A stretch of DNA of 37,801 nt from Asterionella formosa. Taxonomy: Eukaryota. Positions 1 to 35,394 of the stretch are shown one piece after another. How positions within the stretch are numbered: the stretch's first letter is position 1; each line of letters begins with the position of its first letter. Made by a program: the position numbers and the translations under genes. The stretch lies in contig NKIB01015187.1 of the NCBI GenBank assembly GCA_002256025.1, positions 1 through 37,801 on the forward strand. Direction: 5' to 3'. The notes beneath the pieces are model-generated. The model was given only the letters and a program-made list of their open reading frames with translations, searched no databases and had not been told where the DNA came from.

Positions 1-8
1 CCTTCTGT

Positions 9-891
9 ATTGGAATCTATTGGTGATGAAGGTGACGCAATAACACTTTCTCGTACAAACAAGGTGACAATGGTATCTATGTCACCTCGAACTCAGGCTA
101 CAGCACATTCTTGTACAGATAAGGTGACGACATTGGTATCTATTACTGATGGAGGGGACGCAATAACACGTTGTTCTCGTACAAACAAGGCGACATTGGT
201 ATCTATCCTTGTCACCTCGTACTTAGGTTAAAAATAAGATCAAACGAGCTCAAAGTTGTTATCTGTGATCTTATTTAATGGCAATCATAACTAACCAGAA
301 AGTATGATGTGTAATTTTTTAGTAGTAAGATTTAATTCATGTTAAAAGTGAGATCAAAAAAGCTGAAGATTGTTATCTGTGATTTTTTGTTGGCAATCGA
401 ATCTAACCAAAGTATGATCTGTAATTTTTTAGTAGTAAGTTACATTCATGTTAAAAGTAAGATCAAAAAAGCTAAAGATTGTTATCTGTGATCTTATTTA
501 TTGGCAATCATATCTAACCAAAGTATGATCTGTAATTTTTTAGAAGTAAGATATATTCATGTTAAATGTAAGATCAAAAAGCTAAAAATTGTTATCTGTG
601 ATCTTATTTATTAGCAATCATTTCTAACCAGGAGGTATGATCTGTAATTCATAACGATTGATTCGAGCGATTCATCTACTAGTAAATTTTTTTATGATTT
701 GTACCATATGAAATTTTTTGTATGACTCCCGCTTGCTTATTTAGGGTCTTCATTAAATTAATTACTTGTAGGTACAAGAATTGATGCGGGAAAATTCAAA
801 AACAGTGCATCAGGTCGTGGAAAACAATGATACCGGTATCCTCTTGCATTGAATAAATTTGAATTATGTATAACCTTAATTGATGATAGTA
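9..891 (+). repeat. Composite direct repeat, copy A (partner at 4330-4987)
   Basis: Near-identical to 4330-4987 (ATTGGwATCT...TGATGATAGTA). It has ~62-bp subrepeats (TTGGTATCTAT), then ~111-bp tandem units, then a non-tandem tail. Confidence 0.95.
227..646 (+). repeat. Tandem array, ~110-114 bp unit, about 4 copies
   Basis: GTTAAAAGTAAGATCAAA...GTTATCTGTGATC...GGCAATC..TCTAACC recurs at about 227, 341, 450 and 561. Copy B has only 2 units (about 4554 and 4666). Confidence 0.9.
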
Positions 892-1300
892 TACACATTA
901 TGTGCATATATTTATATGTTTCAAAATTTTATAAATATTTTCCTTAGCCTATATATACATTTGAAATCATGTTTAGAGGTTTCTTGTTATGCATACCGGT
1001 TACACATGATCCTGAAATAAATGATCTTCTCTGCACTGTGACAAGGAAAACTGAAAGAATGACGCTTCAACGAAAACAATGATGATAAACCTTGTTGCGG
1101 CTTAGAAGGATTGAAAATGGAAAAGTGAACTGAATCTAGCTATGCTATGCATGTCAAGAGTACATGCCAAGGTAATCAATTGTTGGGTTCACAAAGACTA
1201 AATGATTGCCTCCTTCCCCAACAATTCAAAAACACATTTCGCATTCAGCAGGATACCACCAATGTCGACCAAAAACTTGTAAATGCTCTTGCTGGATCAA
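700..1300 (+). repeat. Decayed dispersed repeat homologous (inverted) to ~34600-35200
   Basis: ATTGATGC..TTCAAAAA..CAGT..GTGGAAAACAATG..TGCATTGAATA..GAATTAT at 780-870 matches the reverse complement of 35050-35126. Weaker blocks (CACATTTC, ATTCAGCAG, CACCAATGT, TGCTCTTG) continue in the same order. Boundaries are approximate. Confidence 0.7.
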
Positions 1301-1676
1301 TGAGCCACTGTTAGAACATCACTGACACATGTTTGTTTTTCAATCTTTCAGGATAATTTTAATCAAAGAGTTTTGTTGTAAGTTATAAATGACATTGGTG
1401 GAACGGTTTATTGATTTGTACTTATGTCATCATTGACTGACACATTATTTTACTGCATTATGCAAAAACTTCATCGATTTCTGGTAAGTGGAGCATGCTA
1501 AAATGGTACTGTAGTGTTGAGACATAAACAAAACATGGCTAACGAGCAAGTAATTCCTTCTCATTGTTATTATAATTAGGAAATCAAAATGGATGAAACA
1601 GAATCGGATCAAAAGGAAATAGGATTTGCAGCATGTAGTCAGACGAGTTTCAGAATCAGAGTGGTGGAAGGGTTGC

Positions 1677-1847
1677 GGGAGGTATGCAAAAAGATATTTG
1701 AAGGCAGGAAGCAATGCATCCTCAAGAGCATTGAAGGGAAGCAGGAGGCATGTATCAAGAGCATTGAAGGGACGTGGGGGAGGCATACATCCTCACACCA
1801 AGCATTGAAGAAGGGAGGCGGGAGGCATGTATCAAGAGCATTGAGAC
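1677..1847 (+). repeat. Degenerate minisatellite (~33-41 bp unit, core GCATGTATCAAGAGCATTGAAG)
   Basis: The AGCATTGA core occurs 4 times, with GGAGGCAT-like leaders. Confidence 0.75.
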
Positions 1848-2466
1848 GATAGAAAAGGGGAACATTGGCTGTTAAAGCATCTGCACAAAATGTAGAAACT
1901 TAAAATTGATTTCGTGATATAACAGTAAAATTACAATCCATTTCAACCTATTTTTAACAGCTATTTCGATAAGACTTACCATCATATAAGGCAGGATAGG
2001 TATATGATAAAAGAATATACATCATAGGATAATGTTTTGATAATTGTATGGTGTTTTGATTATTACGACGAGTAAGCTTAGCCTATTCACTTTCATAGTA
2101 TGTAGTTATCATACATATAACAAAATATGCATCATGCACAGGAAAATTCTCAGAGAAATTCTTTGCCAGTTATTGTATGATACCCCAGATCTTATAAGTA
2201 CGATGCTTTTTATTTGCAGACGTTGGAATCAGCTATTGATTGAATAATGGTTCTGGTACCCTCATAAATATTTTACACTTCGGAGTGGCGAGAACATACG
2301 TGTGGGACAAGCTACACTACGTATATATAAGATATATAAGCTATATATAAAGCGGTCATGTTGTGGAAAGTATATGTGTGGCAATGGGGTTAGGCTGTCC
2401 TATATATTGCCTCTGATGTTGCCAATAAAGAGATTTCTTAAAACTATGGGATAGCACAATGTTATT

Positions 2467-2763
2467 AAGCAAAGTTAAGATGGTTATTTCGAACCCCCTG
2501 CTATTCAAGGTTCATGTGATGCTACTATTTCCTGAATGAAATTAAACTACTTCCTGATTAGTGATGTTGTGGCTCTAATTCTGCAGCATACAAACGTGCT
2601 CGCCAATAGCTAGTCAATGAGAATGGAAGACCAATAATTAAGGCCATGAGCAACAAACTGCGCCGCCATCTGGTGGTCCATTTTCACTTTGATCCACATC
2701 TCATCTTGAAGAACAGATTCGAAAGACGGATCGATGTTCGCAATGGGCGAATTATGATCAAAA
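2467..2763 (+). repeat. ~297-bp dispersed repeat (second copy 13262-13558)
   Basis: AAGCAAAGTTA...AATTATGATCAAAA aligns to 13262-13558 with only a handful of substitutions. Confidence 0.95.
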
Positions 2764-2788
2764 GGTATTATCTTCTTGATTTCGGTTG

Positions 2789-3338
2789 GGTCACTACATG
2801 ACTTATGGAATCAATGTCCAGGCTGTTTGTGATGCTGACTCAAGATTTATTTATTTTGGTGTGATTGCACTGGGAAAATGCAGTGACCAAGTAGCTTTTG
2901 AACAAAATTCCATTTTCGATCGAGTTGCAGCATTCAACACAGGTTTTTATCTGGTCGGTGATGCAGCTTACACATTGTCTGATGTAATGCTTGTTCCCTT
3001 TGTTGACTCACAACGTGATGATCCAAGACAGGATACATTTAACTTTTCCTTTCCCAGCTGAGGATAAGAATAGAAATGGCATTTGGTCTTCTTCAGCCAG
3101 ACAAAATGGTGTCCTCTGAAAAAACCTATCGACAAGCATGAAAACATCTGCACGCATTCTTGATTCATGTACTCAACTTCATAACAATGTGATTAATGAG
3201 AAGATAATTGATAACGAGATTATGGATGATAATCAAATACTTACAGAGATGATTCCAGTCAGTTTGTCACCCCTTGGTTGGGGCTACTTGCCAACTGTGG
3301 AACCATTGTGTATAAGATCAATTATTCCTGATTCTTGA
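2789..3338 (+). pseudogene. PIF/Harbinger DDE transposase (DDE_Tnp_4-type), C-terminal half, frameshifted
   Basis: Motifs GHYxxYGINVQAVCD, GKCSD, YLVGDAAY, then after a frameshift QLRIRIEMAFGLL and LHNxVINE. These are typical of Harbinger transposases. Confidence 0.9.
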
Positions 3339-3720
3339 AAATAAATTTTGATCTTTCATTTTCTCATCAACGACACTGTTTATCATATGATCAATATGTT
3401 ATGATCAAAGGTATCATAGGATAAACGAATCAAAATTTATTGATCAAAGATCATAGTTTATATTGGAGTAGTTGCTCATGCATGCAACCCCTTCCCCTTC
3501 TGTATACAGTACGGAAGTGACAACCCCCAAGCTACCAAATTTTTATGTCTTGTAAGAATTATCGCAGCATGCATGCACACATGACTCCTACAGGTATACG
3601 TGTGCAAATTGAAAACATCTAATTCGTGTGATGCATCTTACAATGGCGATCATATGATCATATAAATTCGATTTATCATCTAATATGAAAAATATTTATC
3701 GTCATGTAGAATATTGTATG

Positions 3721-3754
<34 letters not shown>
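3721..3754. repeat. Compound microsatellite (TA)9(GA)8
   Basis: Read directly from the sequence. Confidence 0.95.
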
Positions 3755-3988
3755 TACATGAATTTTTGTATGTATACCATCACTGGCTGCAAACATCAAC
3801 AACCGCTCAATCTGAATGCGTGTTGCATGAGTAGGACAGTAGTACATGGGTATGTGTACATATCTGCTGTAGCAATCTATAGTTCAGAAGACATGATAGA
3901 TATGCAATTGCGAGTCTATTGTTGTGTGAGTACTGGTACCAGGTACTACTGTCTATTGTATCATCTATTGTACTAGTACCAATATGTT

Positions 3989-4240
3989 GCACAGATATTT
4001 TTGTATGTAAACGTATGTACACGATTGATTTGAATTTAAATCATGCCCATCATAGGGATACCTATAAAAGCAGCACACATATTTTTGCATGTAAACGTAC
4101 GTACCAGTAAACGATTGATTTGAATTTAAATCATGTCAAGCATTGTGATACCTACATACCGGTATGTTACGCAGATATTTGTATGTAAACGTAATACGTG
4201 TAGGATTGATTTGAATTTGAATCATGCCCATGATAGGGAT
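3989..4240 (+). repeat. Tandem array, ~90-bp unit, 3 copies
   Basis: GATTGATTTGAATTTrAATCATG at about 4023, 4113 and 4204, each preceded by ATGTAAACGTA. Confidence 0.85.
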
Positions 4241-4329
4241 AGGATTAGGTACCGGTAGTGACTTTGGTATACCGGTATCTAAAGGTGATTGAGGGTACCC
4301 AATATCACGTAGTCGTACAACAATGTGGC

Positions 4330-4987
4330 ATTGGTATCTGTTGGTGATGAGGGTGACGCAATAACACTTTCTCGTACAAACAAGGTCACATTGGTATCTA
4401 TGTCACCTCGAACTCAGGCTACAGCACATTCTTGTACAGATAAGGTGACGACATTGGTATCTATTGCTGATGGAGGGGACGCAATAACACTTGGTTCTCG
4501 TGCAAACAAGGTGACATTGATATCTATTCTTGTCACCTCGTACTTACCGGTAGGTTAAAAGTAAGATCAAACGAGCTCGAAGTTGCTATCTGTGATCTTA
4601 TTTAATGGCAATCATATCTAACCAGAAAGAATGATGTGTATGTTTTAGTAGTAAGATATATTCATGTTAAAAGTAAGATCAAAAAAGCTAAAAATTGTTA
4701 TCTGTGATCTTATTTATTGGCAATCATTTCTAACCAGGTGGTATTATCTGTAATTCATAACGATTGATTTCAGCAATTCATCTACTAGTAAATTTTTTTA
4801 TGATTTGTACCATATGAAATTTTTTGTATGATTCCCGCTTATTGAGGGTCTTAATTAAATTAATTACTTGAAGGTACAAGAATTGATGCGGAAAAATTCA
4901 AAAACAGTGCATCAGGTCGTGGAAAACAATGATATCCTCATGCATTGTATATATTTGAATTATGTATAACCTTAATTGATGATAGTA
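4330..4987 (+). repeat. Composite direct repeat, copy B (partner at 9-891)
   Basis: Aligns to 9-891 but has two fewer 111-bp units and differs by CCGGTA indels. Confidence 0.95.
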
Positions 4988-5708
4988 GTGATGCACTACT
5001 GTAATACAGTACCGTATCTATTTGAGATGCATCTACACTACATCTACTTACATTCCTATCGTAGAAGAATATCCTGAGTAATATTATAATTTTGGATTTC
5101 ATCTTTTGATATTGCACTGACACTCTGATTTTGTTTTACGGAGGCAGGAGTACTATGTTACCAAGCAATAACTGTTCATGATACCTGGTACCTGGTACCA
5201 GGTACCAGTATCGGTATGCTGGTGTGTGCATATAACCTATATTATTGGTATATACTGGTACTAGGTATACCAGCGGAAAAGGAACGGTACATACATAGAA
5301 AAAAGGGGGACATTCTCAGGACATCTGACTCACTATAATTTCCTATTACATCAGCAACGACATTTGACAAAACTACATCAGTACCAGTATGAAAACCACA
5401 GGTACAATTATCACGAATATCGGTTACAGATACGTGTATGTAGCAAAATCATCCACACGATGACCTATGACCCAGTAGAAGCTATATATATACATCAATA
5501 CGCAGGTATATATGATCATTTATGCCGGTATATAAATGGAAATATGAACATATTATATGAACACACGACAATAACTGGCACAACAAAAGGAGGAGAAAAA
5601 AGCCTTGACCTCAATTGAACTGCACTTGTTAAAGTCCTCGACCTAGAGACGAAGAACTTCATTCTTGAATAAAAGTTCTGTCATCACGAGGAACAGTGAA
5701 ACGAAAGA

Positions 5709-7659
5709 ATGGATAGACTATCTTGTTTTGCACTGTTACTATACATTGGTCTTTCATCTGGACAGGACGGAGACGAGTTGCAGTCGTATGCCACGTATCA
5801 GCTGAAATCGCGTCGTCTTCCAGCTACTGGAAGTGATTCTATTGTGCGCAACGAAGGATTTGGAATCCATTTCTTCGACATCTTTGTTGGAAACCCAGCC
5901 CAGAAAAGGACTCTGGCAGTGACAACCAACAGTGACCACACTGCATTTGCTTGCCAGGTATGTTCTACGTCATTCATTTTATTATACTGAAAAGCTTTCG
6001 AAATCACACTTTCTCCGTTCAAATGCTTCATTTTACCCTCCGTTGCTTCAGGACTGCATTAAATGCGGTAGATTAAGATCAAATGTGTTCAATTCAAGTT
6101 CATCTTCAGCCTTCTCTGTGGTCCCTTGCAATCAATGTTCACCGAAGGCAAATTGCGACGGTGACCGATGTATCCAAAGGGCCCAAATGAAAGATCTTAG
6201 CAGCTGGTCGGGCTACGAAGTTAGGGATCACGTTTTTCATGGGGATGGTGTCAAACTTGAAGCGATTATCGGAACCGACGCAGCAGTCATTTCTGGATTC
6301 CCACTCCAGTTTATTTGTCAAACACAAGCTCGAGGGTACTTTGAAAGTTCTGTCATGAATGGCGTACTTGGTATGTCGCCTGCTCCAACTTCCTTTATCA
6401 ATCAAATGTATAACGCTGGAAAGGTGAAAAAGCCTCGGTTTACTCTTTGTTTCAATAATCGCAATTTGAACGGAATGGATGATAGCAACACTGGGGTGGT
6501 AACTTTTGGTGGATTTGAGCGTGCCTTTCTTCAGACGGAAATGGTCTACACCAAGAAGTTGCTTGATGTCAACGAAGAGCATAGTTATAGAATCAACATC
6601 ACGAAACTTCATCTCCGTGTTGGTGGAGGAACTTCTATCCGTCCTGATTTGGAGCAAGCTACAATCCCAATCGCGCCTATGCATGGGGTCAACACAGAGG
6701 CGGTTTTGGACAGTAGTGTCCCCTTCATGAGCTTTGACAGACGTTGGGAACCAGTATTCATGCAGGCCTGGCTGCAAGCTACTGGTAAAGCATTTTCTTA
6801 TGGACGAGAAGAACTCACATATTCTCAATTAGAAAGTCTGCCAACATTGTTGATAGAGATTGAGGTGCGTTGGCATGGGCAGTTCCAAACAAACGTTATT
6901 CTTTTCGTCCATGCTCACATTCCCTTTCTTTTCGTTTAGGGCGACCCTAATACCCCTAAAGAACTTGATACATCAAGTGTCCCAAATCTTACGGATGACT
7001 ACAACGTTCTCATTGCGGTTCCTGCAACTCGCTACATGGCACGCCTCTTGACAGGAAAAAGAGGTTACAGGCCTCGCATTAAATTTGATGGTATTGAAGG
7101 GTCTACGCTCGGTGCCATCGTTATGCAAGGCCATAGTATTTCCTACGAAATTGACATGAACCGAATCGGTTTTGCTGAATCTCAACGGTGCGAAGCCAGT
7201 CATGCTGTGAGTAGAGGGAGAAGTATTGAAAATGGATCAGGTGGCAGCAACACAACTAATGTGGATGGGACGCTGAGTATCAACAACGCAGTTCACCCCT
7301 CTACTGCTGAGCCTGTATCGACTCTGCATGTTCCTTCTGTTAACAACGATGACATGTTCGTCGGCACGACTTCTATCACTTCCTATGCTAGCATTGCGCC
7401 TAACAGTGGAGAGACCACTAGTACTCTGGGAAAATACACAGGTGGCGGATGCGCCACCGCCTCTTGCCGCTGTTTCATGGCAATCGGTTACGTCTTTATT
7501 GGAACGGCTCTGGCAGTTGCCTACCGTCTTTCAAGGCCCAAAGAACGCACGCTTGCTTCGTTTGAAAACTTCGAAAGAGACGAAGAGCCACTCGTGTTTT
7601 CGGTTGACGCTTCAGCTTACCGAAGAAAAACTTTCCATGAAGGAGGAACTATGGTGTAA
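5709..7659 (+). CDS. Pepsin-family (A1) aspartic protease-like protein, signal peptide plus C-terminal TM; 3 exons (5709-5957, 6052-6864, 6940-7659), ~593 aa
   Basis: Two phase-0 GT..AG introns join the three ORFs in frame. Motifs: IFVGNPAQKRTLAVTTNS, CQDCIKCG insert, NGVLGM, FTLCF, AVLDSS, STLGAIVMQGHSISYEIDMNRIGFAESQRC, and a hydrophobic helix FMAIGYVFIGTALAVAY. Confidence 0.88.
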
Positions 7660-7924: not shown

Positions 7925-8230
7925 TTACTCGTCAGTCTTTGATCCAAACTCCCAGTCTTTCCTACAAAAGGGGCACGTATTCCGACTCGACGTTAGCCAT
8001 GTCTGAACGCATTGCAAGTGGAACGAGTGGCCACATTTGCCCCAAACTACAGGACACTCGTCCCCTGGAAACTTGCATCCTGGAGCAACACCTTCGTAGG
8101 CTGATTGACAAATGCCACATACTTCGTCGTCTTCTCCGGCATTCCAAGTCCATTTCGCTACTCCGTGGTAGCGTTTGATTCGTACTCGGAGCGACCGTTT
8201 GGGTTTGGCGTCCTCATACAATAATGACAT
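7925..8230 (-). CDS. APC11: Anaphase-promoting complex subunit 11 (RING-H2)
   Basis: VAKWTW..CGICQSAYEG..PGCKFPGDECPVVWGKCGHSFHLQC..W..CPFCRKDW is the APC11 signature. Confidence 0.95.
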   Translation of the reverse strand: MSLLYEDAKPKRSLRVRIKRYHGVAKWTWNAGEDDEVCGICQSAYEGVAPGCKFPGDECPVVWGKCGHSFHLQCVQTWLTSSRNTCPFCRKDWEFGSKTDE

Positions 8231-9131
8231 TGTGTGAATTTTGATAGATCAAAACAGGCACGGAAAATGCTTTTCTTTGCTTATTGCGAGATCACTTGTG
8301 GAACTTGTACTTGGCTGGGTGGTAGCTATAGTTAGTTGCTGTTGTAGTGACTAACACCAGTTCATTAATTAGTAAGTTAACATGCAAATCAAAAAGTAGG
8401 ATTAGGTCTACTTTGCTAGTTTTCGATAGTACATGGTTGTCGAAGCGGCCGTCAGGTGATTTACCCGTACTTGGTACCTGGTACCAGGTTCAAGGTTCAA
8501 TTTTCAATTCAAAAACGGAACGCCTTTGTCACGGTAATCTGGTAGAGTACCTGGTACCCTGGAACCAGGTACCATTACCACCCCTGGTACTGGTACTTTC
8601 TCTTTCACCGCCGTCGTCACGACCTGATCCTTGGTGCTGGTCCTTGAGTTGCCGTGATGGATCCTTAGGGTCGTTCTCATCATTCCGAATTTGCTGTATC
8701 ATTTCCGGGTTGCGGGCAAAAAGTGACATTTGGTATCAAAACACGGTATCAGCAACGGTAACTTGATGGTATCAATCTTGTATCATTGATACGAAATTGA
8801 TACTTTTTTTTGCCCACTCCAAAAACGGTATCAGTGATACTGACGTTTTCACGCAGGTATCATTTCTGTTGTCACTAATAAAATAAACGAAAATAAGCCT
8901 GCAAGGCAAGGCACCACTAATAATATTAATGGCATAAACTATCCCTTCAATTTTATGCTGGCTGCGTACATCGTCCAAGCAACACCATTGATACAATTAT
9001 ACGGCACCAGACAGAAACTTATACTTGGCACTTACTTATATTGGCGATCTCATAACTCCCAAGTGTTTTTGTGTATTTGTTACAACAGATCAGTCATTGG
9101 AATCTCCCTGAATATACTACAAGCAAGGCAA

Positions 9132-10390
9132 ATGGAACCGCATATGGAACCAGTCAGACAAACGCAGACAACAACTTTTGATGTGGAGACCACTGTATAC
9201 TATCAAGATTGACCCACCACCTTCAACAATATAATACAGTCTCTTGCTACAGATACTGAAGTCAATCGATTTGTTGACTCCCTCATACTTCCTGATGACT
9301 TTGTGCTTGATAGTGAAAGGACACAGGTGATTTTCATCAAAGGTGTTCCAATGAAGCAGATCTCGGTCAAGGTTCTCCGAAAAATTTGCGTCAGATACAA
9401 AGTTTCTGGATACAAAAATGGGAAGAAGGCTTTCACTGTTGCTTTGATTGCTCGACTTTTGAAGAGAGACAGCTTGTCACAGAGGATATACCCTAGATCT
9501 TTCAATGTCAATGAATCAGACATTGAATTGGATAGTGATAATGATAATCACAAAGATTCATCAATTAATGATGAGGAATTCAAAGTCGATGAAGATTGCG
9601 AAGATGATAATGATGAAAGGAGCGACAAAGTTCAAGAGGCAACAGCAGTGCAGCCACATGAGTCTTTGGTCAATCCTCGGTTTGAACAAGAGGAAGTGAA
9701 CCCTCCTGTAAAAAAGGCGAAAAAGAATAAGGTACAGGCAAAGTCAACCCCTCCAGATGCTGTGACCTGCATCAACACATACTTCTGTGTCATTTATGTC
9801 TACATGTGCAACAAGCATCGCTGTGATGTTTTGCGTCTAGGTCAGCCACCAACTCTGGCTGAACTTGATGCAAGAAGATTTCGACACCAGTTCATTTTCG
9901 ATCGACTTGTTGTCACATATATTGATGATGAGGATGACGAGCGACTGCACCATTCTAGCATTTCCTGAAGATGAATACTGGGACCATGTTGGAATTGATG
10001 CTGACTACGCAAAAAAATATGATGTCCTCACTTCCAAAGACTTTTCATTGTTGGTAAGGATACATTATTCATCATTATCAAGTTGCCTATCGAAAAAACA
10101 AACAATCAGGCAGTCATGATGATTTTGTCAACTTTGTTGGGTCACGTCATTTCCTATATTACTACCATCTTTGGTTGTGTCAAGTTCCGCATTTATTGAA
10201 TGTTGCTGTACCACTGTTACCAAAGTATGCCTTCCGTGAGAGTATAGACATTGACGATACTGCCACCACATCGTCATCAAAATCAAAATCTTCAAGCAAT
10301 TTCAGTGCTAGAAAGAAGGGAAGACATGCAATCTTGACGCAAAAAACTACATCATCTTCTCAAAAACTTGCAAGTGCATCAAGAACATAA
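9132..10390 (+). pseudogene. Probable Harbinger partner (ORF2, DNA-binding) protein, disrupted
   Basis: One reading path runs from ATG 9132 through an in-frame TGA (9210) and frameshifts near 9950 and 10055. It has a basic helical segment (VLRKICVRYKVSGYKNGKK), an acidic linker and SGSHDDFVNFVG..LYYYHLWL. The ORF2 role is inferred from its position inside the TIRs opposite the transposase. Confidence 0.65.
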
Positions 10391-10828
10391 AAAGTTTGTA
10401 AGGAATGATCCCATACCTTCGGATACATCCAAGATCGTAAATTCTACCAACCTCCTTGACTTTGAAGAAAAGGATGAGGAACTTGGCGATAGTAGTTGGC
10501 GGCCATTCAAACATTTCACAAAATAAAAAGATGTTATCTTATAAATAGTAATTAAAATAGCGTTCAATTACATATAAAACATTCCTTATCTGAACCTTCA
10601 ATCACAAATTTCATAAATTAGTCCATCCTGTTCCATCATGTTGCACTAAGAAAGACGAAAACGTTTGACTACGACAACAACAGTGCCTCCAGCCAACCAA
10701 AACCCCAAAACTGAACAAGAACTTAGATGGTCTGAATGGCTGGATTCACTTGGAAAAGATGTCGAAAGTAGTATGAGCATAAACTTAGTTAGATTACTAG
10801 GCACCAACATCTATGAATAAAATTTGCA

Positions 10829-11281
10829 CATTCCCGTCATCCCCTTTGTCTCAATACCCGGTCGGAATATGAGCGACGTGGCTACTGTGAAACTATACCC
10901 ATTACTACGCTAGTACTGTGAGACTGTAGGCTTGCCCTACCAGCATTCCCTTCTTCCCCTTTGTCTCAATACCCGGTTGGAACATCACGTGACTACTGTG
11001 AAACTGTACATATTACTACGCTGGTACTGTTAGACTGTAGGTTTGCCCTACCAGCATTCCCTTCTTCCCCTTGTCTCAATACCTGGTACCCGGTCGGAAC
11101 ATGACGTGACTACTGTGAAACTGTACCGCTTACTACACTGGTACTATGAAACTGTAGGTTTGCCCTACCAGCATTCCCTTCTTCCCCTTTGTCTTAATAC
11201 CCGGTCGGAACATGACATGGCTACAGTGAAACTGAATCTATTACTAAGCTGGTACTATGAAGCTGTAGCTTTGCGCTACCA
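10829..11281 (+). repeat. Tandem array, 111-117 bp unit, 4 copies, inside the Harbinger element
   Basis: Units start CATTCCC at 10829, 10944, 11055 and 11172. They share CCCCTTTGTCTCAATACCCGGT, CTACTGTGAAACT and CTGTAGGTTTGCCCTACCAG. Confidence 0.95.
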
Positions 11282-11473
11282 ATCTAATGTCTATTACTGA
11301 GTATTGTCGGTGCTGCATCGCTTCCGATCCAGCACTTTCTCTGTCTAATCCTATAGTAGTTGACAGACCATTATCATCCCTTTCTGCTTCCTTGTTCTGT
11401 TACAGTCACGTTTCTCTTGACAACTTGACATTCGCACGCTGTCGATAGTGCAATATATCACTTGTTATCTGGA

Positions 11474-12780
11474 ATGGCAAACGTTCCAAGTGCTACAAGG
11501 AATGGAACGATCTTGGTTGTGAAGGGGATACCGATCGCAGATTTTTCAATCAGGAAAAACGTGTTTCTATGGCGTTTTTCATGTCTAATCAAGAGACAAC
11601 GGAAGAGTAAGGAACGACTCATACTGGTTAGATACTTTGATCATGATGACAAAGGGAAGAGGGAGACGAGACTAGATGACAGTGTCCTGGATTTTGTTCT
11701 CATCAAATTCTATGTGGTCCTAGAGTCTGGCTCGTTCAACAAAACATCATTTGAAACTTCAAGGAAATTTCGGAAACATATAGGACCAGCTATGATTTTA
11801 TGGAAAACTCACTTTCCTCGAGATTTTAAACTACATCAGAAAGACAACAATATGCCACCAAATGCAGCAGAAATAGACGATTTGATATGTTTTATCACTG
11901 ATTCATTTCAGTTAATCAAAACAGTTCCGAGAACCGAGAACTTCCTTTATGTTATCGACAGAATTGAATAAGAATGTGTGTTTTTCCTTAATTTATCTTT
12001 CCTTCCCGATGAGTTTTTTGGAACGGAAGAAAAAGACGATCCATTTTTACATGTGGCGAAAATCTTTTTGTACTTCCGAGAAAATCTATAGCCCTCCTAT
12101 TTTTTTGTTGAAACAAACATTCAAAACAACTGCAACATATAAAGCACTTGCAAATACCATGGAAGGAAAAGCCATACAAGTGTTTCCTTTCAAGAATTAT
12201 ACTGACAGCTTAAAATATTCAAAGCTGCATCTGCCAAATGTGAAAACATCTTGGCATATGATAAAGTGCTTGTTAATGCCAGGTTCTGATGATGTCTCTG
12301 GCAATAGCGACATAGTTATACCGCACACTACCACAATGTTGATCACCAGTTCTGGAAAGAATGGCTACCCAAAACCTCAGAAACCACACCAAGATTATAC
12401 ACCGACAGAATGCGAAAGGGAAACTCCTATGCCTTGGGGAATGATAATGTCCTTGTCTTTAGGAGGGAACTGTTTAAATATATGGGATAATTATTCGGAT
12501 GAGAAGCATGCAATTACATTTGTCCATACCATTCATATTGATCTTTCTCATGTGTGGAGATATAGTCCATGGAGGAGCTTTGGATAATAGTTTAAAAAAT
12601 GGTGCTCTACGGATTCATTTCTATTTGTCGCCAGCTATAAAGCAAAGAAATGGACACTCTGTCACCAAACTGAAACGACAGGATAACAACATACACACTG
12701 ATGGATCAATATGTGGTTGTAACCAGAAATTCTCGTCATTCTTATTGCAACATGACGGAACAGAGCGGTCTAACTTATGA
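11474..12780 (+). pseudogene. Transposon cargo ORF with C-terminal 2OG-Fe(II) dioxygenase-like motifs, frameshifted
   Basis: Three overlapping + ORFs (11462-11971, 11949-12587, 12499-12780). Motifs: PQKPHQDY (His at 12387), GDIVHGG (His at 12568) and LRIHFY (Arg at 12610). This gives HxD...H...R with double-stranded beta-helix-like spacing. Confidence 0.6.
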
Positions 12781-13261
12781 TCAAATTTCATAAAAACCAA
12801 TCCAAAAATAAGTGTTTGGGTTTTGGTTTGGTTCAACGGTTAGTAACGGCCGTAAAGAAACCGTCAAAAACGTAAGAAATTCATCAATGGCATGAGGAAT
12901 ACCGCAATGCTGGTAGGGCAAACCTACTGTTCGAGAGTACCGACGAATTATACAGTATTCTAACATGAATGTTTAATTGGTACCAATGTGTATCATCATG
13001 AAACTTAGTTACAAGTGAAGACAAAGTCATTTCATTCGATGACTGATGGTATTGGTTGAGAAATGTTATCAGGTGCTACACGAAGGATCTATAACTGGTG
13101 TTCACTATGTGGCTAGAAAGTGAGAAAAAATCGGAAACCATTGAGATTGCATCACAATATTTGCTCGAATAGTTCTTTTGTACCATTTGGTTGGTGTCGT
13201 GTTTGTTATCAAGAACACCAGCTAGATCTCTCGATCGTTGTATCGTCGGAATTCTGTTTCA

Positions 13262-13558
13262 AAGCAAAGTTACGATTGTTATTTCGAACCCCCTGCTATT
13301 CAAGGTTCATGTGATGCTACTATTTTCTGAATGAAATTAAACTACTTCCTGATTAGTGATGTTGTGGCTCTAATTCTGTAGCATACAAACATTCTTGCCA
13401 ATAGCTAGTCAATGAGAATGGAAGACCAATAATTAAGGCCATGAGCAACAAACTGCGCCGCCATCTGGTGGTCCATTTTCACTTTGATCCACATCTCATC
13501 TTGAAGAACAGATTCGAAAGACGGATCGATTTTCGCAATGGGCGAATTATGATCAAAA
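13262..13558 (+). repeat. ~297-bp dispersed repeat (first copy 2467-2763)
   Basis: Direct alignment to 2467-2763. Confidence 0.95.
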
Positions 13559-13779
13559 CTGATCACCTTATGTGTATGTAAACATTGTACCCAACAGTGC
13601 TATCAGAATGAATTCTTCGCAACAACGGTGCGTTCTTCGTTGCCATTCCGATTTGAATGCTCAACCGGTACATGCTTTGATCCAATTCTTGTACCGGTAA
13701 TATTTGTCATTATCTCTCCATTCGCATATCAGTAATCGAGTTTCTTACAAGCAATGTGCGTTTGTTGAACAATCCCTTA

Positions 13780-14642
13780 AAAGCTACCTTCTTGCAGGGA
13801 CGACGATGATCGCAGTCTTATAACGAATGATATGCATGGTCTCGATATTGATGGGGAATTATGCTGGGGAAGTTTGATTGTTTGTTTGTTACTCGAAATC
13901 AAAAGCTTTAGTCAATTTATATGACAGAATTGGAGAAGGATGCATTGAAGGCCATACCGATTCCAATTCGAAAAAAAAATGAACCAGGGTTGTTGCCACT
14001 TTCAACTTAAGTCGGGCGGTTGATGGTGGCTAGGAAGCCGTCAATAGCACCAACACATCCTCTCATCATGCCCTCGGAGCTTTTGCATTCAAAGCTGGAA
14101 GCCAATTTGATAAATTCTCCTTTTTCTTTTGGAAAATTAATTTCGAGTTCTTCACAGTTTAGTACAGCATCAATGAACAAATCAAGACATCGATAAAGTG
14201 AAGCAATGCTACAACTGTAACTAGGCATGACGAATGTTGATGTAACTGCCACCAGCCAGCCATCGCAAACCAATGGCTCCCACAATTTCGGGAATTATGG
14301 GCTCAGAAGTGCCACATTTGGAATAATTCCCTGCAATATAAATTTCCAGCAAGGAGGTGAGTTTTTGAATGCTCTGTGTGACATTCTGTATGTCTTCTCG
14401 AAAGCAATCTTGTGATAGAGTTTCTTGACATGCGATTGCCAGGAGATTCTTTCGTGGTGCCACTTGTGCCTTCGTTGTTGTTGTCGTTCAGATGACTGAA
14501 GCTGCCGTTTACAGCGTTGCCTTTGTCATTTGGACGAGTGTTCTTTTTCTTCTGCTTCCTTAGCTAAATGACAGAGGAATAAGAAACCAAGATCACTACT
14601 GTCATCATCATTATCATCAAGTAACTCAAATGGCAACGGCAT
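13780..14642 (-). pseudogene. PIF/Harbinger transposase, with stops, frameshifts and internal deletions
   Basis: From ATG 14642: WQSHVKKLYHKIAFEKTYRMSHRAF, AIGLRWLAGGSY, GCVGAIDGFLATINRP and NNPGSFF. Only degraded traces of the C-terminus follow (RIGIGMAF resembles RIRIEMAF). The lower boundary is approximate. Confidence 0.88.
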
Positions 14643-15290
14643 GATTCATGCAATGGTGTGTTTTTATAGAATATATAGTTTACCAGTGTTATATTTTATG
14701 TTGCTGCTTGATATCAAGACCATCAATATATTCAGGAGTGAGGGATATACACATGATCCTTGCCAGCCATTTGCCATTGAAGATCCATGTTACTCCATGA
14801 TACAATGTGATCACAAATTAGTGATACAGTGACACTTTTGGAGTGAATGAAATTCAGTTCAAATCGAGTTACCGTTGCTGATACATTTTCAAAAAAATTC
14901 AAATTCCGTGATGCACGAAAAAAAAAGATAAGAACGGCCCTTACGACTGCGTTTGTTACCTGGTTGGAATGATAGAATGTGCTACATACACATCATATGT
15001 GTACCGGTAAGTGAAAGTCGAATGATATACCGGCGGTATTTAAGTGCCAGCTGCTCCGAACTACCGGTACCAGAGGTAGTTAGTACCATTCGTAGTACTG
15101 GTTCAAGGATACCGGTATACGCACTAACTCTGTGACAAGATCGTTAGACTACGGTATCATGTAACAAAGAGTAGCACCTGGTACCAGTACCAGTATTATT
15201 TACCCACTGCAGTCTATCGTTCTTACCATGTTCTAATTTTATTAGCGAACTCAAAAATCTCCAAAGAACGACGAAGTGCTGCTCACCACG

Positions 15291-17538: not shown

Positions 17539-17604
17539 NNNNNNNNNNNNNNNNNNNNNNNNNNNNNNNNNNNNNNNNNNNNNNNNNNNNNNNNNNNNNN
17601 NNNN
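17539..17604. other. Assembly gap (66 N)
   Basis: Run of N following a G8 tract. Confidence 1.
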
Positions 17605-25925: not shown

Positions 25926-26410
25926 GATAGCGAAGGTTTGTTGTGGTGAGTCAAGCGGAAAGAGATAACATGATAGGCCGGTGGAAAGTACCTGGTATCT
26001 GGTAACTGGTACCTTTGATGTTGAAAAGAAGATGTAGTAATCATATTATGTAGCACACCTGGTACCAGGTTCTGGTATTTTTCATACCGGTATGATATTC
26101 CTTGTACACATGTACCTATGGTACCAGGTACCAGCACGTTGCGGTAATTTAATATCGGATAAAGAAAGCTAAACTTTTAGTTTCAGCAAAATTACCGCAA
26201 CTTGCAGGCACCAAGGTGTACCAGGAATACTACCTGGACCGGTTACCATTACCGGTAGTAGCCAATATCAGGTGCTAAAATCCTCAAGTATATTTACCAT
26301 GTTGCTACACTACCGGTATAATTGTGCCGACATGCATTTTATTTTTTATTTATCGAGGATGAAACCAAATTTCCATTGTCAAGAAGCTTACAGCTGAGCT
26401 ATTATTTGAA
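25926..26410. promoter_or_regulatory. Divergent (head-to-head) intergenic region between the cyclase-like gene and LTN1
   Basis: 485 bp between opposing start codons. It contains a 17-bp inverted repeat and GGTACC-rich runs. Promoter function is inferred from the geometry only. Confidence 0.55.
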
Positions 26411-29400
26411 ATGGGGAAAGAAAAAAGGAAAACCAGGTTGGAGAAGGGAGGTGGTGGAGCTGCGGAGTTCATTGGCTTTTCCGCTTTTGCTGTGCCCTCG
26501 ACGGACTCAAGCTCAGCTGACGGAGGAACAGCGCTCAAGTGGTCCCCAGTTTACACTGGATCTGACGCAACAATTTCCCTTCTATTCAAAAAGATTACCC
26601 AAAAGCGAGATGGCATTACCAAATCCAAAGCGTTGAATGATCTCGAAGATTATTTCAAGAAAGATGATGCGGTTAAGAAAGAACAAGTTGCTGCTCTGTC
26701 GCACCTCATGTTCATGTTTCATTCCAAGCTCGCTTATGATGATTTTGCCACTGTACGAGCAACCGCTTTGATTGCATTGACTGCTGCTTACTTAAGGATA
26801 CCCAAGGCGTGGACAACTCTTGCTATGGAGCAGCATCACGAAATTTGGGGTATGGTATGGTGCGCACAAGGAGACGCTGCAGCAGACGTACAAATAGCTG
26901 CCAGGGCACTATGCTCACACGTCCACAATGGATCCTTTGATGGTATTCATGACTATGTGAGAAGAATATTGAATTATGGACGGCCCAAGGCAATGCATGA
27001 CGATTTGTTTGCCAGAAACAACGAAGTCCTTTCTGACATGGAACGAGAACAACTCGATGAGCGCTATGAACGCATCTCCACGACAGCAATAGAAGGAATG
27101 AACTTGTGGATCCAAAATCACCCCGAAACTGAAATCTTTCGATATAAAATCCATTTCTCTGATTCATTCTTGTTCAAACCCCTGAATTCTTCGAAATCAT
27201 CATTCCGACGCAAGACATATCAACTGATATCAACTATGTGCCAGCATGCCAAGAGTCTAGTTTACAGTCCAGTTGAAAGGTCGGCCTTGTCCAAGATTCT
27301 CCCTCAAGTAGTTTCGCAAGAAAAAGATCCAGCCAATGTTCCAATTTTTATTGAATTTCTTCTACTTTATTTAAGTGGCAACGGCGACGACTTTGCAGTT
27401 ATCATAGACGCCATTTACAAACCGTTGAGCAAGATGCTCAAGCAAGCTTGCTTCGGAGCATCTGCCAACCAATGGGGTCCCAGTATGTTGCCATTGTTCG
27501 TGACAATTAATGATTTGGAAATTGTGTTACCACTGATTGCTTACCTCTGGGAGGGCAGAGAAGCAGCGATTGGGCCGACTGATCAGCTCTCGATAGCTGC
27601 AGCTGTGGCTGAGTCGTCGTCCTTCTTCTTACTTCGGCGTGAGACAGATATTGAAATGGAAGAATCAAAGGCTAAAAAACTTGCAGCATTATGGCTCGAA
27701 GTTCTATTATTTTTCCTTTCGACTTCCCTACATTTTTTCCAAGGAAAGGAAGCCGATAGGCACCTTCAAATCTGCCTGGCTCGAGATTGCTTTCGGTTGG
27801 ACTTAGCCTCCTACAATCGTGACAACTGCGCATTGCATCATATAAAAGATTGGTTTTGGGTTGTGCAAGTTCCTCTCGTCTTCGAAAGCAGCACTACCTC
27901 TGAAAGTCATGTAAGGTTCAACCAATTACTTGAGGGAGTGTCAGCGGAGGAACAAAGGACTGGTAAAAACGGTAAAGATATGACTCGGCTTCATCCTATT
28001 GTTCGAACGAAGTTCCACTCAGTGCTAGCAAGTTATCAGGTGACGTCGGGCAGTGTCCCGAACAACAACACCTATAACTTCCTCATTAAATCTCTTAACT
28101 ATTGTGGCGCTGAGTACATCTTTGAGATCGGTGGTTTCACAAATATCAATCAGTTTTTGATGAACGACTTGCTTCGGTGGATGGTCTTACATACATCCTC
28201 GTTGGTGGATGGATATGATAAGGAAAATATGCAACTTGCTGAGCAAGATGCAACTCTGCTTGCGATTTGCCTTGGTGCAATCACGTCATCGCTCAATCAG
28301 AAATCTTTGTGGGATGCATTCCTTCGAGAAATTACAGCAGCAAAATGCAATTTAGACATTCTTTCCGCTTGTTTGGTAGTCCTTTCAAATGGTTTCATTG
28401 ACCTGATCATGTCCGGAGCACTTGAAGAATATGCAATTCAAGTAGGCGAGGATTCCGCGAGGCAACGCCAAATCTTGATCAACAAAATTGTCGTCAATGC
28501 TTCTGCGGACGTGGAGCCTTTTAAGTCCTCTGCTCCCCAAACAGCCAATTTCCTCCGGTTGTGTGTCGGGTTACATCCATCCGTGCCACAGTGTTTAATT
28601 GGAAAAGGCGCGGTTGAAAAGTGGCTTGAAGTCGCAACATCTGCTGGGGAACGAACAGAAAACTTCAATCCGTCCTCTTCTCTTCCCAACCCTGTCCTCG
28701 AAACGATGATATCCATAGCAACCAAATGCGACATGATGCATAGCAACGACGTTTTGAAGGTAGCAACCGAAGCTTGGAGAGAAGGTAACCTCGTCTGGAA
28801 ACAAACGGGCGAGATTCTCGCCACGAACAGCGAAATCTGTAAGATGCTCATCGCAATTGGGTCAGCGGAGCTTTCAAATGGCCTCAAAATAATCTGTAAA
28901 TCGTTTTCATCACTTGGTCGCGATGAAGTATTAATATGGTCTACTCGGGCGCGTCGATTAATTGATGCTCATTTGACCTTGGGTACAAGCTTCTCTTCCT
29001 TGCAGCTGGTTGGTCTGTCAGACTTCTCACTTTGGCAATCTGTCGCGACCGGCGAGCTCGACGGAAATGCTTTGTTTGCAATTTTGACGAGTTTGCTTGT
29101 GATTCTCGATTCAGATGTAGAGAGGAGGTCACTGATCCTGGAAGCCGATGGCGCCTTCCCTGGACTATTTGTTAATATCTTGCTTGCAATGTCGGACGCC
29201 GGCGTATACTCCTCAATATACGGTTCTAGAAAAAGCGAGGAAAGATGCAATTTCCTCCTTTCCTTTCTTGGTTCCGCTAAAGATATTGGATTCGGTACGA
29301 TCGAGTTATGGTGCACACAGGTTATTGAGAAACTAGCTATTATGATGAAGAGTCCCTGTTGTGACAATGGGTCCCAGAGAAATGTCACGGTCCTCTCAGT

Positions 29401-31669: not shown

Positions 31670-32349
31670 GCTGGTATATCGGCCTCGTCTCAACCAATGG
31701 GAAAAGATGTCGCTAGCACAACAGCTTTCAAGAATTCTAGACTATTTTCTGCTTTGGAAACCATTTCCTCTATTTTCTTACTAGCGATAGATACAGAATT
31801 GCGGCCATTTAAGGGTTGACTGGGTGCTTCGCCTTCTTTTTTGTGAAATATCGTATACCTTCCTGATGGAATTTATATGATAAACTTCATAGATTTGAAC
31901 GTCGGAGGCATCTACGACATCAACTAATGTGTCCCGTGGATATTGCTTTTTGTTACCCCGCTAAAAGGTAGGTATCATAGTCCTCAAACATGAAAATATC
32001 TCGGGCAACCATATTTATGATACCCATCGCAATCTCTCCCCTATAATAAGATAAAATAAGATACCGCTATTTCTATATTGCCGGCATATTAAGAATAGTA
32101 CATGCATGATGATGACGAGCAATGATCGATATTTAGAGTGAGACTTCAAGTTATTACCTTTTATTACCTTTGTGTGGTGATCATTAGTTTTATCAAGGAA
32201 ATTGACCGAAGTTCAAAGTAATTGTACTAACCTGCCCAGTATTTATGAAAAGTGAAATTTCAATCAATTCAGCCTCAGCCAACAAGTACAGTGCAGATGA
32301 ATTTTTGGGAGAAATAATTTTTGCCCATCAGTATGACAATTAAGAATGG

Positions 32350-33342: not shown

Positions 33343-33395
33343 TCCAAGTGAAAAGACAATTTGGCATAAAATACTACAATTCTATTTGTAGAAAA

Positions 33396-35200: not shown

Positions 35201-35394
35201 GTCATAACCCATTTGTATCATTATTTATATACAAGGATTTTGGTAGCAAATTGTTTGAGCCCCTTTTTTGGGCGGGAGTTCTTCATGTGTACCTGTACAT
35301 TATACGACAATAACAATTTATCATATATATACAGAGTACCAGTAGCAGGTAGGAAGTGATATACTGGGGGTACCAGGTAGTCAGAGTACCAGGT

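What the first reader, a model, noticed from the sequence alone, without database searches (positions are those of the whole stretch)
8668..14940. Three-ORF Harbinger transposon carrying a 2OG-Fe(II) dioxygenase-like cargo gene
Seen: TTA TSD, TIRs and subterminal IRs delimit one element. It contains a partner ORF (+), a transposase (-) and, between them, a ~430-codon frameshifted ORF (11474-12780) with PHQD...GDIVHGG...LRIHFY. Established: canonical PIF/Harbingers encode two proteins; HxD...H plus a distal Arg is the 2OG-Fe(II) dioxygenase signature; TET/JBP dioxygenases are associated with KDZ transposons in fungi. Inference: this may be a transposon family carrying a nucleic-acid or chromatin-modifying oxygenase, for example for anti-silencing. 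The substrate cannot be read from the sequence, and this copy is dead.
Basis: partly seen in the sequence, partly recalled or inferred. Interest (0 to 1): 0.75.

Follow-up and report, generated by a model that had tools for sequence, protein, structure and literature searches.

The report
Diatom-type transposon carrying an oxygenase-like gene
A dead copy of a very abundant cut-and-paste transposon in an alga-like genome carries, besides its own two decayed genes, a broken copy of an unannotated gene family that looks like an iron-dependent oxygenase, echoing fungal transposons that carry DNA-demethylating oxygenases.

Summary
The element 8668-14940 has a TTA duplication, 12/14 terminal inverted repeats, a 21/22 subterminal inverted repeat and GTATCA clusters at both ends. 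The middle ORF (11474-12780) matches an intact 433-aa protein (P0070) over its whole length at about 89% identity. It is broken by one TAA stop and two 1-bp frameshifts.

The ORF belongs to a small, multi-copy family with no Pfam match, found only in environmental, diatom-like data. Its HxD...H...R motif is conserved: H 18/18, D 17/18, H 18/18, R 14/16. Profile-profile comparison hits PhyH-type 2OG-Fe(II) oxygenases only (score 35.9, P=4.4e-4) and aligns the catalytic residues. Seven other families score 11-17. Language-model neighbours are PhyH, HalD and 2OG-FeII_Oxy_3.

No beta-helix fold was shown, because AlphaFold2 was unconfident in that domain. No tool recognised the element's transposase or its partner ORF. 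Linkage of the ORF to the element rests on its position, a few bridging contigs and equal abundance. Other copies appear to lack the ORF.

The closest precedent is fungal TET/JBP-carrying DNA transposons, including Harbinger types (Kojima 2025). I rate it a new variant of a known kind, of moderate to high interest, with several parts unproven.

The parts
8665..8667 (.). Left copy of the TTA target-site duplication
8668..8681 (+). Left terminal inverted repeat, GGGTCGTTCTCATC
   Evidence: Matches the right end at 12 of 14 positions.
8696..8862 (.). Left subterminal cluster of 10 GTATCA motifs. It includes the 22-nt inverted-repeat arm at 8746-8767.
9213..10526 (+). Partner ORF, about 437 codons, split over four frames. 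Its family is unknown.
   Evidence: No Pfam match. Other copies lack 4 bases at 9938 (table 4).
10614..10682 (-). Inverted fragment of the last 22 codons of the middle gene. It forms an inverted repeat of about 70-85 nt with 12712-12790.
   Evidence: Repeat I1 (69 nt, 77%). tblastn of P0070 residues 412-433 gives 74% identity.
10829..11281 (+). Tandem array of 4.0 copies with a 111-nt period, upstream of the middle gene
11474..12780 (+). Middle gene: pseudogene of a 433-aa PhyH-like putative Fe(II)/2OG oxygenase. It has a helical N-terminal domain and a C-terminal HxD...H...R domain.
11969..11971 (+). In-frame TAA, where P0070 has Gln
12047..12060 (+). 1-bp insertion in an A run (frameshift)
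   Evidence: Table 4 lists a base left out at 12058 and at 12059 in other copies.
12512..12516 (+). 1-bp insertion (frameshift) just before the strand that carries the distal His
   Evidence: In table 4 the base at 12514 is left out in 42538 of 62890 depth units in X1 and in all RNA contigs of X2 and X13 laid there.
12785..12830 (.). Hairpin-like palindrome directly after the stop codon. About 12793 is a junction where many other copies have different upstream sequence.
   Evidence: Table 7 lists 59 loose ends at this place in X1 and 6 in X13.
12891..12950 (-). One inverted partial copy of the 111-nt repeat unit, downstream of the gene
   Evidence: Repeats I2-I4.
13262..13558 (.). Segment S, 97.3% identical to 2467-2763 of the window. 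Read on the minus strand it would hold the tail of the transposase gene.
   Evidence: Table 7 lists 34 loose ends at 13262.
13561..14530 (-). Decayed remnant of the putative Harbinger transposase, in several frames. The GCVGAIDG motif lies near 14030.
   Evidence: Pfam is negative. Table 4 lists indels relative to other copies at 13832, 14218 and 14361. The family assignment is by recall and by indirect links.
14798..14884 (.). Right subterminal GTATCA motifs (3, mirrored) and the 22-nt inverted-repeat arm at 14863-14884
14927..14940 (-). Right terminal inverted repeat
14941..14943 (.). Right copy of the TTA target-site duplication

Best explanation
8668-14940 is a dead copy of a very high-copy PIF/Harbinger-type DNA transposon. 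It sits between host genes of a gene-dense, diatom-like eukaryote.

Besides a decayed transposase gene (-) and a decayed partner gene of unknown family (+), it carries a third gene (11474-12780, +). That gene belongs to a small, unannotated, multi-copy family of 430-500-aa proteins. Each has a helical N-terminal domain of no known fold. The C-terminal domain is most likely a PhyH-like Fe(II)/2-oxoglutarate oxygenase: His-x-Asp plus a distal His would bind iron, and a basic residue about 14 positions after that His would bind 2OG.

Intact, apparently transcribed paralogues exist elsewhere. This copy is inactivated by a TAA stop and two 1-bp insertions.

Inferred, not shown: the oxygenase travels with one subfamily of the element and acts for the element. 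The most plausible action is oxidising a repressive mark or a silencing factor, by analogy with the TET/JBP genes of fungal DNA transposons. The substrate is unknown.

My separate odds: Harbinger-type element 0.85; oxygenase fold and chemistry 0.7-0.75; the gene is a regular component of the element family rather than a separate insertion 0.65; an anti-silencing role 0.2. The confidence given for this explanation covers the first three together, without the anti-silencing role.
For: Ends of the element: TSD, TIR, a 21/22 subterminal inverted repeat and GTATCA clusters. Host genes flank it: APC11 at 7928-8248 (E=3.6e-26), and HIT, DnaJ and listerin downstream.

Abundance: in the best DNA holder, 54405 contigs lie on the stretch and every one of 30 bins is covered, the ORF bins as much as the transposase and partner bins.

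Gene family:
- Full-length homology to P0070.
- 33 proteins at E<=1 in the profile search, with representatives of 371-503 aa at 30-40% identity to each other.
- Clusters of 82, 116 and 50 near-identical members.
- No Pfam family.

Conserved residues: H342 18/18, D344 17/18, K417 18/18, H428 18/18, N434 17/17, R442 14/16, H444 16/16.

Profile-profile comparison: hhalign against PhyH scores 35.9 (P=4.4e-4) and aligns the catalytic motifs. Seven other families score 11.1-17.4. The block-shuffle null reaches at most 25.4 in 70 shuffles. True 2OG-clan pairs score 27-73 and the 13 control pairs at most 18.2.

Language-model neighbours: PhyH 0.92, HalD 0.91, 2OG-FeII_Oxy_3 0.90.

Linkage to the element: a contig of the polyA RNA run X2 runs from the ORF's 3' end into the transposase-side DNA (12735-13228, 9 differences in 494). 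An X13 contig spans 12733-12984, and another spans 10392-10696 (table 8). No loose ends leaving the ORF's 3' end appear among the listed rows (925 further rows were not shown), whereas 59 arrive at 12793 from the other side (table 7).

Precedent: fungal Harbinger-type PHISTA elements encode a transposase, a TET/JBP dioxygenase and a third protein without a Myb/SANT domain. Phytophthora HarbingerS carries SET genes (PMC12730594, sections 1 and 3.1.4 read).
Against: - No fold was shown. AlphaFold2 gave pLDDT 33.8 for P0003 with 9 sequences. For P0070 with 53 sequences it gave 56.7 overall but under 50 over most of 225-433.
- Pfam PhyH and all other 2OG models miss all 53 members, even at E<=10.
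- Profile searches of PDB sequences found nothing relevant.
- HMM-against-sequence scores to PhyH are marginal: E=0.011-0.06 in tiny databases.
- The hhalign probability is only 33%, and it falls to 20% and 2% with two other query alignments.
- R442 is Leu or His in 2 of 16 sequences.
- No tool recognises the transposase.
- The TIR plus TSD alone is what chance gives.
- The ORF has its own inverted repeats: 10614-10682 against 12712-12790, and the 111-nt units against 12891-12950.
- Many copies have other sequence left of 12793. The ORF module may therefore be absent from much of the family, or be a separate unit.
- No second full copy could be inspected.
Confidence: 0.45

Rival explanations
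1. The ORF module (about 10605-12950) is a separate repeat unit that landed in, or recombined into, this Harbinger copy. On this reading it is not a gene the Harbinger family carries: a nested element or rearranged mosaic in a graveyard of transposon copies.
For: The module is framed by its own inverted repeats: 69 nt at 77%, and 46-60 nt at 75-83%. An inverted fragment of the gene's 3' end lies at 10614-10682. In X1, 59 loose ends arrive at 12793 with a heterogeneous consensus (agreement 0.73), so the DNA to the right often has other neighbours. The element is visibly rearranged elsewhere: segment S recurs at 2467-2763, and an RNA contig carries S inverted (record 21).
Against: The inverted repeats are not in mirrored order (left to right: A, B, C ... 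A', B', C'), and no target-site duplication flanks them. The module encodes no transposase of its own. Among the listed rows no loose ends leave the ORF's 3' end, and contigs from two studies bridge it into the transposase side. The abundance of the ORF bins is like that of the Harbinger bins, though such depth is no copy number.
Confidence: 0.25
2. The middle protein is not an oxygenase. It would be a transposon accessory protein of another kind, for example one that binds DNA or chromatin, and its HxD...H...R pattern and PhyH-like strand would be coincidence or a catalytically dead relic.
For: No Pfam, PDB-sequence or fold match. The hhalign probability is 2-33%, depending on the query alignment. 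Language-model scores of 0.9 or more arise 4 to 10 times in 100 for shuffled proteins, by the tool's own note. The GD-to-His spacing is shorter than I recall for PhyH.
Against: The putative metal ligands are kept in 17-18 of 18 sequences across subfamilies that share only 30-40% identity. The only family hit among 8 is an oxygenase family, with catalytic residue aligned on catalytic residue. The score exceeds all 70 shuffles and all control pairs. All named language-model neighbours belong to one clan.
Confidence: 0.27
3. This is a one-off capture of a host gene by this single copy.
For: Only one copy could be examined in its genomic context.
Against: The family occurs as several diverged subfamilies, each with 50-116 near-identical members. 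Tens of thousands of contigs lie on the stretch, its ORF bins included. Paralogous contigs share the downstream junction (table 8).
Confidence: 0.04

Closest known systems
TET/JBP-encoding DNA transposons of fungi, especially the Harbinger-type PHISTA of rust fungi (Kojima 2025, PMC12730594; abstract and sections 1 and 3.1.4 read)
   Same: A PIF/Harbinger-related element with three genes: a transposase, a Fe(II)/2OG-type dioxygenase, and a third protein in which no Myb/SANT domain is found. It is multi-copy, and the oxygenase is presumed to serve the element against silencing.
   Different: PHISTA makes TA duplications; this element makes TTA. The oxygenase here shows no Tet_JBP match (0 of 53 members) and resembles PhyH instead. 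The host is a diatom-like stramenopile, not a fungus. The paper does not mention diatoms, stramenopiles, algae or PhyH: 0 occurrences of each.
PhyH (phytanoyl-CoA dioxygenase, PF05721) family of Fe(II)/2OG oxygenases
   Same: The HxD and GD..H...NS motifs align. It is the best, and the only, profile-profile hit among 8 families. It is also the nearest named language-model cluster, at 0.92; the members of that cluster come from giant viruses.
   Different: The family falls below Pfam's reach. It has an extra N-terminal domain of about 230 aa with no known fold. Its His-to-Arg spacing is about 14, against about 11 in PhyH as I recall it. It is borne by a transposon.
Canonical PIF/Harbinger elements, and Phytophthora HarbingerS with SET-domain cargo (the latter as cited in the introduction of PMC12730594)
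   Same: A 3-bp TTA duplication, short TIRs, two-gene core logic, and a stramenopile host in which Harbingers already carry chromatin-enzyme cargo.
   Different: The cargo here is an oxygenase-like gene, not SET. The DDE_Tnp_4 domain and the Myb-like partner could not be demonstrated in this decayed copy.

Membership tests
PIF/Harbinger superfamily | 3-bp target-site duplication, typically TTA/TAA | tested here: met
   TTA at 8665-8667 and at 14941-14943. That TTA/TAA is the typical duplication is my recall. PMC12730594, section 3.1.4, states that canonical Harbingers make 3-bp duplications.
PIF/Harbinger superfamily | Terminal inverted repeats | tested here: met
   A 12/14 TIR, which alone is at chance level. 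It is backed by a 21/22 subterminal inverted repeat and by GTATCA clusters at both ends.
PIF/Harbinger superfamily | DDE transposase of the DDE_Tnp_4 / PIF type | tested here: inconclusive
   Pfam found no transposase family in 12 fragments or in 21 fragments of the minus strand. There is no similarity to four bacterial DDE_Tnp_4 proteins, and none to the window's own Pfam-verified DDE_Tnp_4 fragment at 2780-3061. Indirect links: segment S (13262-13558) is 97% identical to the DNA next to that fragment. The loose-end consensus at 13958 shares 17 letters with the reverse complement of the junction next to that fragment, by my own reading. The GAIDG-type motif is from recall.
PIF/Harbinger superfamily | Second gene with a Myb/SANT-like DNA-binding domain | tested here: inconclusive
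   No Pfam match at E<=1 for the three largest pieces of the partner ORF. The gene is frameshifted, so a negative result is weak.
Fe(II)/2OG oxygenase superfamily (PhyH-like) | Conserved HxD/E...H metal-binding triad | tested here: met
   H342 18/18, D344 17/18 and H428 18/18 in alignment A5. hhalign places them on the HxD and the distal His of PhyH.
Fe(II)/2OG oxygenase superfamily (PhyH-like) | Basic residue after the distal His that binds the 2OG C5 carboxylate | tested here: inconclusive
   R442 is present in 14/16 sequences (Leu once, His once). K417 is 18/18 and is an alternative candidate. The role of either residue is inferred.
Fe(II)/2OG oxygenase superfamily (PhyH-like) | Double-stranded beta-helix fold | tested here: inconclusive
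   The model has six beta strands at residues 320-384, after the HxD, but at pLDDT under 50. No fold match was found.
Fe(II)/2OG oxygenase superfamily (PhyH-like) | Significant match to the family profile (PF05721) | tested here: not met
   0 of 53 members match PF05721 at E<=10. Only profile-profile similarity is seen: score 35.9, P=4.4e-4, probability 33%.
TET/JBP dioxygenases (PF12851) | Match to the Tet_JBP profile | tested here: not met
   0 of 53 members match at E<=10. No profile-profile test was possible, because PF12851 was not found in 401 bacterial genomes and so no reference alignment could be built.
PHISTA (TET+ Harbinger of rust fungi) | TA dinucleotide target-site duplication | tested here: not met
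   The duplication here is the 3-bp TTA. PHISTA is defined by TA duplications (PMC12730594, section 3.1.4).

The most novel reading that the evidence does not exclude
Diatoms harbour a previously unannotated, transposon-borne family of PhyH-like Fe(II)/2OG oxygenases, fused to a new N-terminal domain. The family has co-diversified with PIF/Harbinger elements. It would protect them from silencing by oxidising a repressive mark on DNA or chromatin. That would be an independent, non-TET reinvention, in stramenopiles, of the strategy seen in fungal TET/JBP-carrying transposons.
Probability: 0.2. Interest if true: 0.8.

Novelty: new variant of a known kind. Interest (0 to 1): 0.6.

Why it matters
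Transposons that carry their own epigenetic enzymes are known from fungi (TET/JBP), plants (VANC, which I recall from Vandal elements) and oomycetes (SET). If this reading is right, diatom Harbingers carry a different oxygenase lineage that no domain database recognises.

That would widen the counter-silencing theme to a major algal group. It would also give a new enzyme family with an unknown, possibly nucleic-acid or chromatin, substrate. And it would offer a handle on how diatoms silence transposons. As I recall, they use DNA methylation and repressive histone marks; I did not check this here.

Even if the function differs, the family is a clean example of a conserved, multi-copy, apparently transcribed protein family missing from annotation.

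Tried and rejected
Fetching the genome or related loci
- Whole genome: none is held.
- Metagenome contig scans with alignment A3 and with P0003: 20 and 26 pattern matches, none confirmed.
- Viral and prokaryote contig scans with P0070: none confirmed.
- Earlier findings of this scan: nothing by place, by sequence or by words.

Family and fold searches
- Pfam on the window's ORF fragments, on P0001 and P0002 and on 53 family members: no relevant family.
- Profile searches of PDB sequences with A2 and A5: only chance rows.
- First AlphaFold2 run (P0003, 9 sequences): unusable, pLDDT 33.8.
- Foldseek and VIA-align on the second model: no match for the C-terminal domain. This is no evidence about the fold, because that domain is modelled with low confidence.
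- Whole-protein language-model search: only 0.85-0.86.

Tests of the transposase
- DDE_Tnp_4 was not found in 61 genomes of one phylum, and in 4 of 201 genomes of another.
- Those four proteins and a small HMM built from them found nothing in the window.
- PDB search with the 95-aa fragment: nothing.
- tblastn and Smith-Waterman between the element's putative core and the verified fragment at 2780-3061: at null level.

Other
- Tet_JBP reference set: 0 of 401 genomes.
- Introns as the explanation of the frame changes: rejected. Close homologues read straight through, and other copies differ by single bases at those places.
- RNA genes in the element: none in Rfam or by ARAGORN.
- Depth from contigs is not used as a copy number or as an expression level.
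- Papers: the search for 'Harbinger' with 'third ORF' gave 2 unrelated papers (listing only). The search for 'phytanoyl-CoA dioxygenase', 'transposable element' and 'diatom' gave 0 papers. The search for 'Harbinger', 'diatom' and 'transposon' gave 18 papers (listing only), none about a third gene by title or abstract start.

Full report
SETTING

The window is eukaryotic and gene-dense. Pfam recognises these host genes:
- an aspartyl protease (5923-6936);
- APC11 (7928-8248, minus strand, E=3.6e-26);
- a HIT protein;
- a DnaJ protein;
- an RNA methyltransferase;
- a listerin-type E3 ligase (26363-31666).

No whole genome is held for the window. The runs that share words with the element are labelled algae, freshwater, lake and river metagenomes. 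The finding lies between APC11 and the next host ORF.

THE ENDS

TTA flanks the element on both sides, at 8665-8667 and 14941-14943. The termini match at 12 of 14 positions. I tested this against chance. One such pair occurs in the real window, and the mean in 40 Markov-resampled windows is 1.2, so the TIR plus TSD alone proves nothing.

The subterminal structure is decisive:
- A 22-nt inverted repeat at 8746-8767 / 14863-14884 is 95% complementary.
- GTATCA occurs 10 times within 8696-8862 and 3 times, on the other strand, within 14798-14884.
- The window total of GTATCA is 43 against 22.06 expected, and none of 100 shuffles reaches 43.

THE MIDDLE GENE

The C-terminal piece found a 497-aa protein, P0002. 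Further searches built a family:
- 4 proteins with P0002 as query;
- 9 at E<=0.001 in the representative library, with the 223-aa piece as query;
- 33 at E<=1 with a profile.

P0070, an intact 433-aa member, aligns to 11474-12777 over residues 1-433 at about 89% identity in the two flanking segments.

The copy has three lesions:
- TAA at 11969-11971, where P0070 has Gln;
- an extra base in an A run near 12058;
- an extra base at about 12514.

Contigs of other copies lack these extra bases. That includes all RNA contigs laid at 12514 (table 4). The lesions are therefore mutations of this copy, not introns and not a feature of the family.

A 69-nt fragment of the gene's last 22 codons lies inverted at 10614-10682.

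WHAT THE FAMILY IS

No member matches any Pfam family of note: 53 members were scanned at E<=10, 15 families were listed, none with more than 2 members and none an oxygenase. PDB sequence profiles give nothing.

The family comes only from JGI/IMG, ENA, Logan and unnamed NCBI records. It carries no name beyond 'hypothetical protein'. It forms clusters of 82, 116 and 50 members at 90% identity or more. That pattern is expected of transposon genes.

Subfamilies share only 30-40% identity, yet certain residues are kept across them:
- H342 in 18/18 sequences
- D344 in 17/18
- K417 in 18/18
- H428 in 18/18
- N434 in 17/17
- R442 in 14/16
- H444 in 16/16

TESTING THE OXYGENASE READING

I fetched reference members of six 2OG or cupin families and of two unrelated control families from bacterial genomes. 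I then ran hhalign locally.
- The family alignment A5 hits PhyH with score 35.9, P=4.4e-4, probability 33%, over 93 columns.
- That alignment places P-H-x-D-Y on W-H-Q-D and G-D-V-V-H-G-G-A-L-D-N-S on G-D-T-I-H-R-A-D-A-N-R-S.
- The other seven families score 11.1-17.4.
- Two alternative query alignments give 28.6 (P=0.0011) and 22.1 (P=0.021). PhyH is the top family with both.
- Seventy block shuffles of the query give mean 18.5, sd 2.9 and maximum 25.4.

As calibration I compared the reference families with each other:
- PhyH-HalD 73
- PhyH-2OG-FeII_Oxy_3 40
- Five further pairs within the 2OG clan: 27-31
- All 13 pairs that include a control family: at most 18.2

So 35.9 is what a true but distant clan member gives.

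Independently, the protein-language-model search with residues 230-433 of P0070 lists only PhyH (0.92; the members of that cluster come from giant viruses), HalD (0.91) and 2OG-FeII_Oxy_3 (0.90) among named clusters. HMM-against-sequence comparisons point the same way but are marginal.

THE FOLD WAS NOT SHOWN

The first AlphaFold2 run failed, with pLDDT 33.8. The second run, on P0070 with 53 sequences, gave pLDDT 56.7 and pTM 0.57. It models residues 10-180 well, as a helical domain. It places six beta strands at 320-384, after the HxD, but with pLDDT under 50. Foldseek and VIA-align found nothing for that part.

THE OTHER TWO GENES

The partner ORF (about 9213-10526) runs through four frames. 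It has no family match.

The minus-strand transposase is badly decayed, and no tool recognises it. From recall, its GCVGAIDG... and ...RYGL... stretches are the Harbinger motifs.

Two indirect links exist:
- Segment S (13262-13558) is 97.3% identical to 2467-2763. That copy of S sits directly beside a Pfam-verified DDE_Tnp_4 fragment at 2780-3061 (E=2.7e-12).
- The loose-end consensus at 13958 (32 reads) shares 17 letters with the reverse complement of that upstream junction, by my own reading. In other copies, therefore, the DNA homologous to 13561-13958 is joined to S as the verified DDE core is.

Direct similarity between the two cores is at null level.

IS THE GENE PART OF THE ELEMENT?

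For:
- It lies inside the TIRs.
- Every part of the element, ORF included, is extremely repetitive in the best DNA holder: 54405 contigs were laid and all 30 bins are covered.
- Paralogous contigs bridge the ORF's 3' end into the transposase-side DNA: 12735-13228 in X2, with 9 differences in 494, and 12733-12984 in X13, from another study.
- Among the listed rows, no loose ends leave the ORF's 3' end.

Against:
- 59 loose ends arrive at 12793 from heterogeneous upstream sequences, so many relatives of the right-hand part lack the ORF there.
- The ORF is framed by inverted repeats of its own: 10614-10682 against 12712-12790, and the 111-nt tandem units at 10829-11281 against one inverted unit at 12891-12950.
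- I could not fetch a second full copy.

I read it as a gene carried by one subfamily of the element (0.65), with a nested or mosaic origin as the main rival.

COMPARISON WITH WHAT IS KNOWN

Kojima (2025, PMC12730594; abstract and sections 1 and 3.1.4 read, plus a term search of the main text) shows that 11 lineages of fungal DNA transposons carry TET/JBP dioxygenases. Among them are the Harbinger-type PHISTA elements of rust fungi. These encode a transposase, the dioxygenase and a third protein without a Myb/SANT domain, and they make TA duplications. The paper's introduction also cites SET genes carried by Phytophthora HarbingerS.

The present element is the same kind of thing in outline. 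It differs in four ways:
- the host, a diatom-like stramenopile;
- the duplication, TTA;
- the oxygenase lineage, which is PhyH-like, below Pfam's reach and without a Tet_JBP match;
- the added N-terminal domain.

The paper does not mention diatoms, stramenopiles, algae or PhyH. A search for 'phytanoyl-CoA dioxygenase', 'transposable element' and 'diatom' found no paper.

VERDICT

The oxygenase reading is probable but unproven. The three-gene Harbinger reading is plausible but rests on one copy and a few bridging contigs. The anti-silencing function is analogy only. I rate it a new variant of a known kind.

Noticed in passing
window 2467-3260: A second, different Harbinger-type remnant. A DDE_Tnp_4 core fragment lies at 2780-3061 (Pfam E=2.7e-12) and continues in another frame to about 3260. 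It is preceded by a 297-nt segment that is 97.3% identical to 13262-13558 of the studied element. Relative to the transposase sense, the two copies of the segment have opposite orientation. Loose ends and an RNA contig suggest that this rearranged form is common in the genome.
   Followed up: partly
[not shown]
   Followed up: partly
window 11963-11980: Two of the changes that separate this copy from the intact P0070 reading, Gln codon to TAA and Arg codon to Cys codon, fit C-to-T transitions, inferred from P0070's protein only. Transitions dominate the differences among copies: about 50 places of each transition kind against 6-26 of each transversion kind in X1 (table 1). That fits decay of methylated repeats.
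   Followed up: no
window 14806-15000: In the polyA RNA run X2 the last bin, which holds the right end of the element and 60 nt of flank, has by far the highest summed contig depth: 10970, against 1-3133 in the other bins. This may be a transcript of the flanking host gene or read-out from the element's end.
   Followed up: no
window 17539-17604: A run of 66 N, an assembly gap or masked stretch, lies between the HIT and DnaJ genes.
   Followed up: no
window 1-5000 and 32000-37801: Both outer parts of the window are AT-rich (GC 0.31-0.39, against 0.43-0.49 in the genic middle). They hold no ORF that Pfam recognises apart from the DDE_Tnp_4 fragment, and are probably further repeat-rich DNA.
   Followed up: no
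window 12785-12830: A near-perfect hairpin of A/C-rich and G/T-rich arms lies directly after the stop codon of the middle gene. It coincides with the junction at which other copies diverge. A related A/C-rich stretch lies at 10686-10712.
   Followed up: partly
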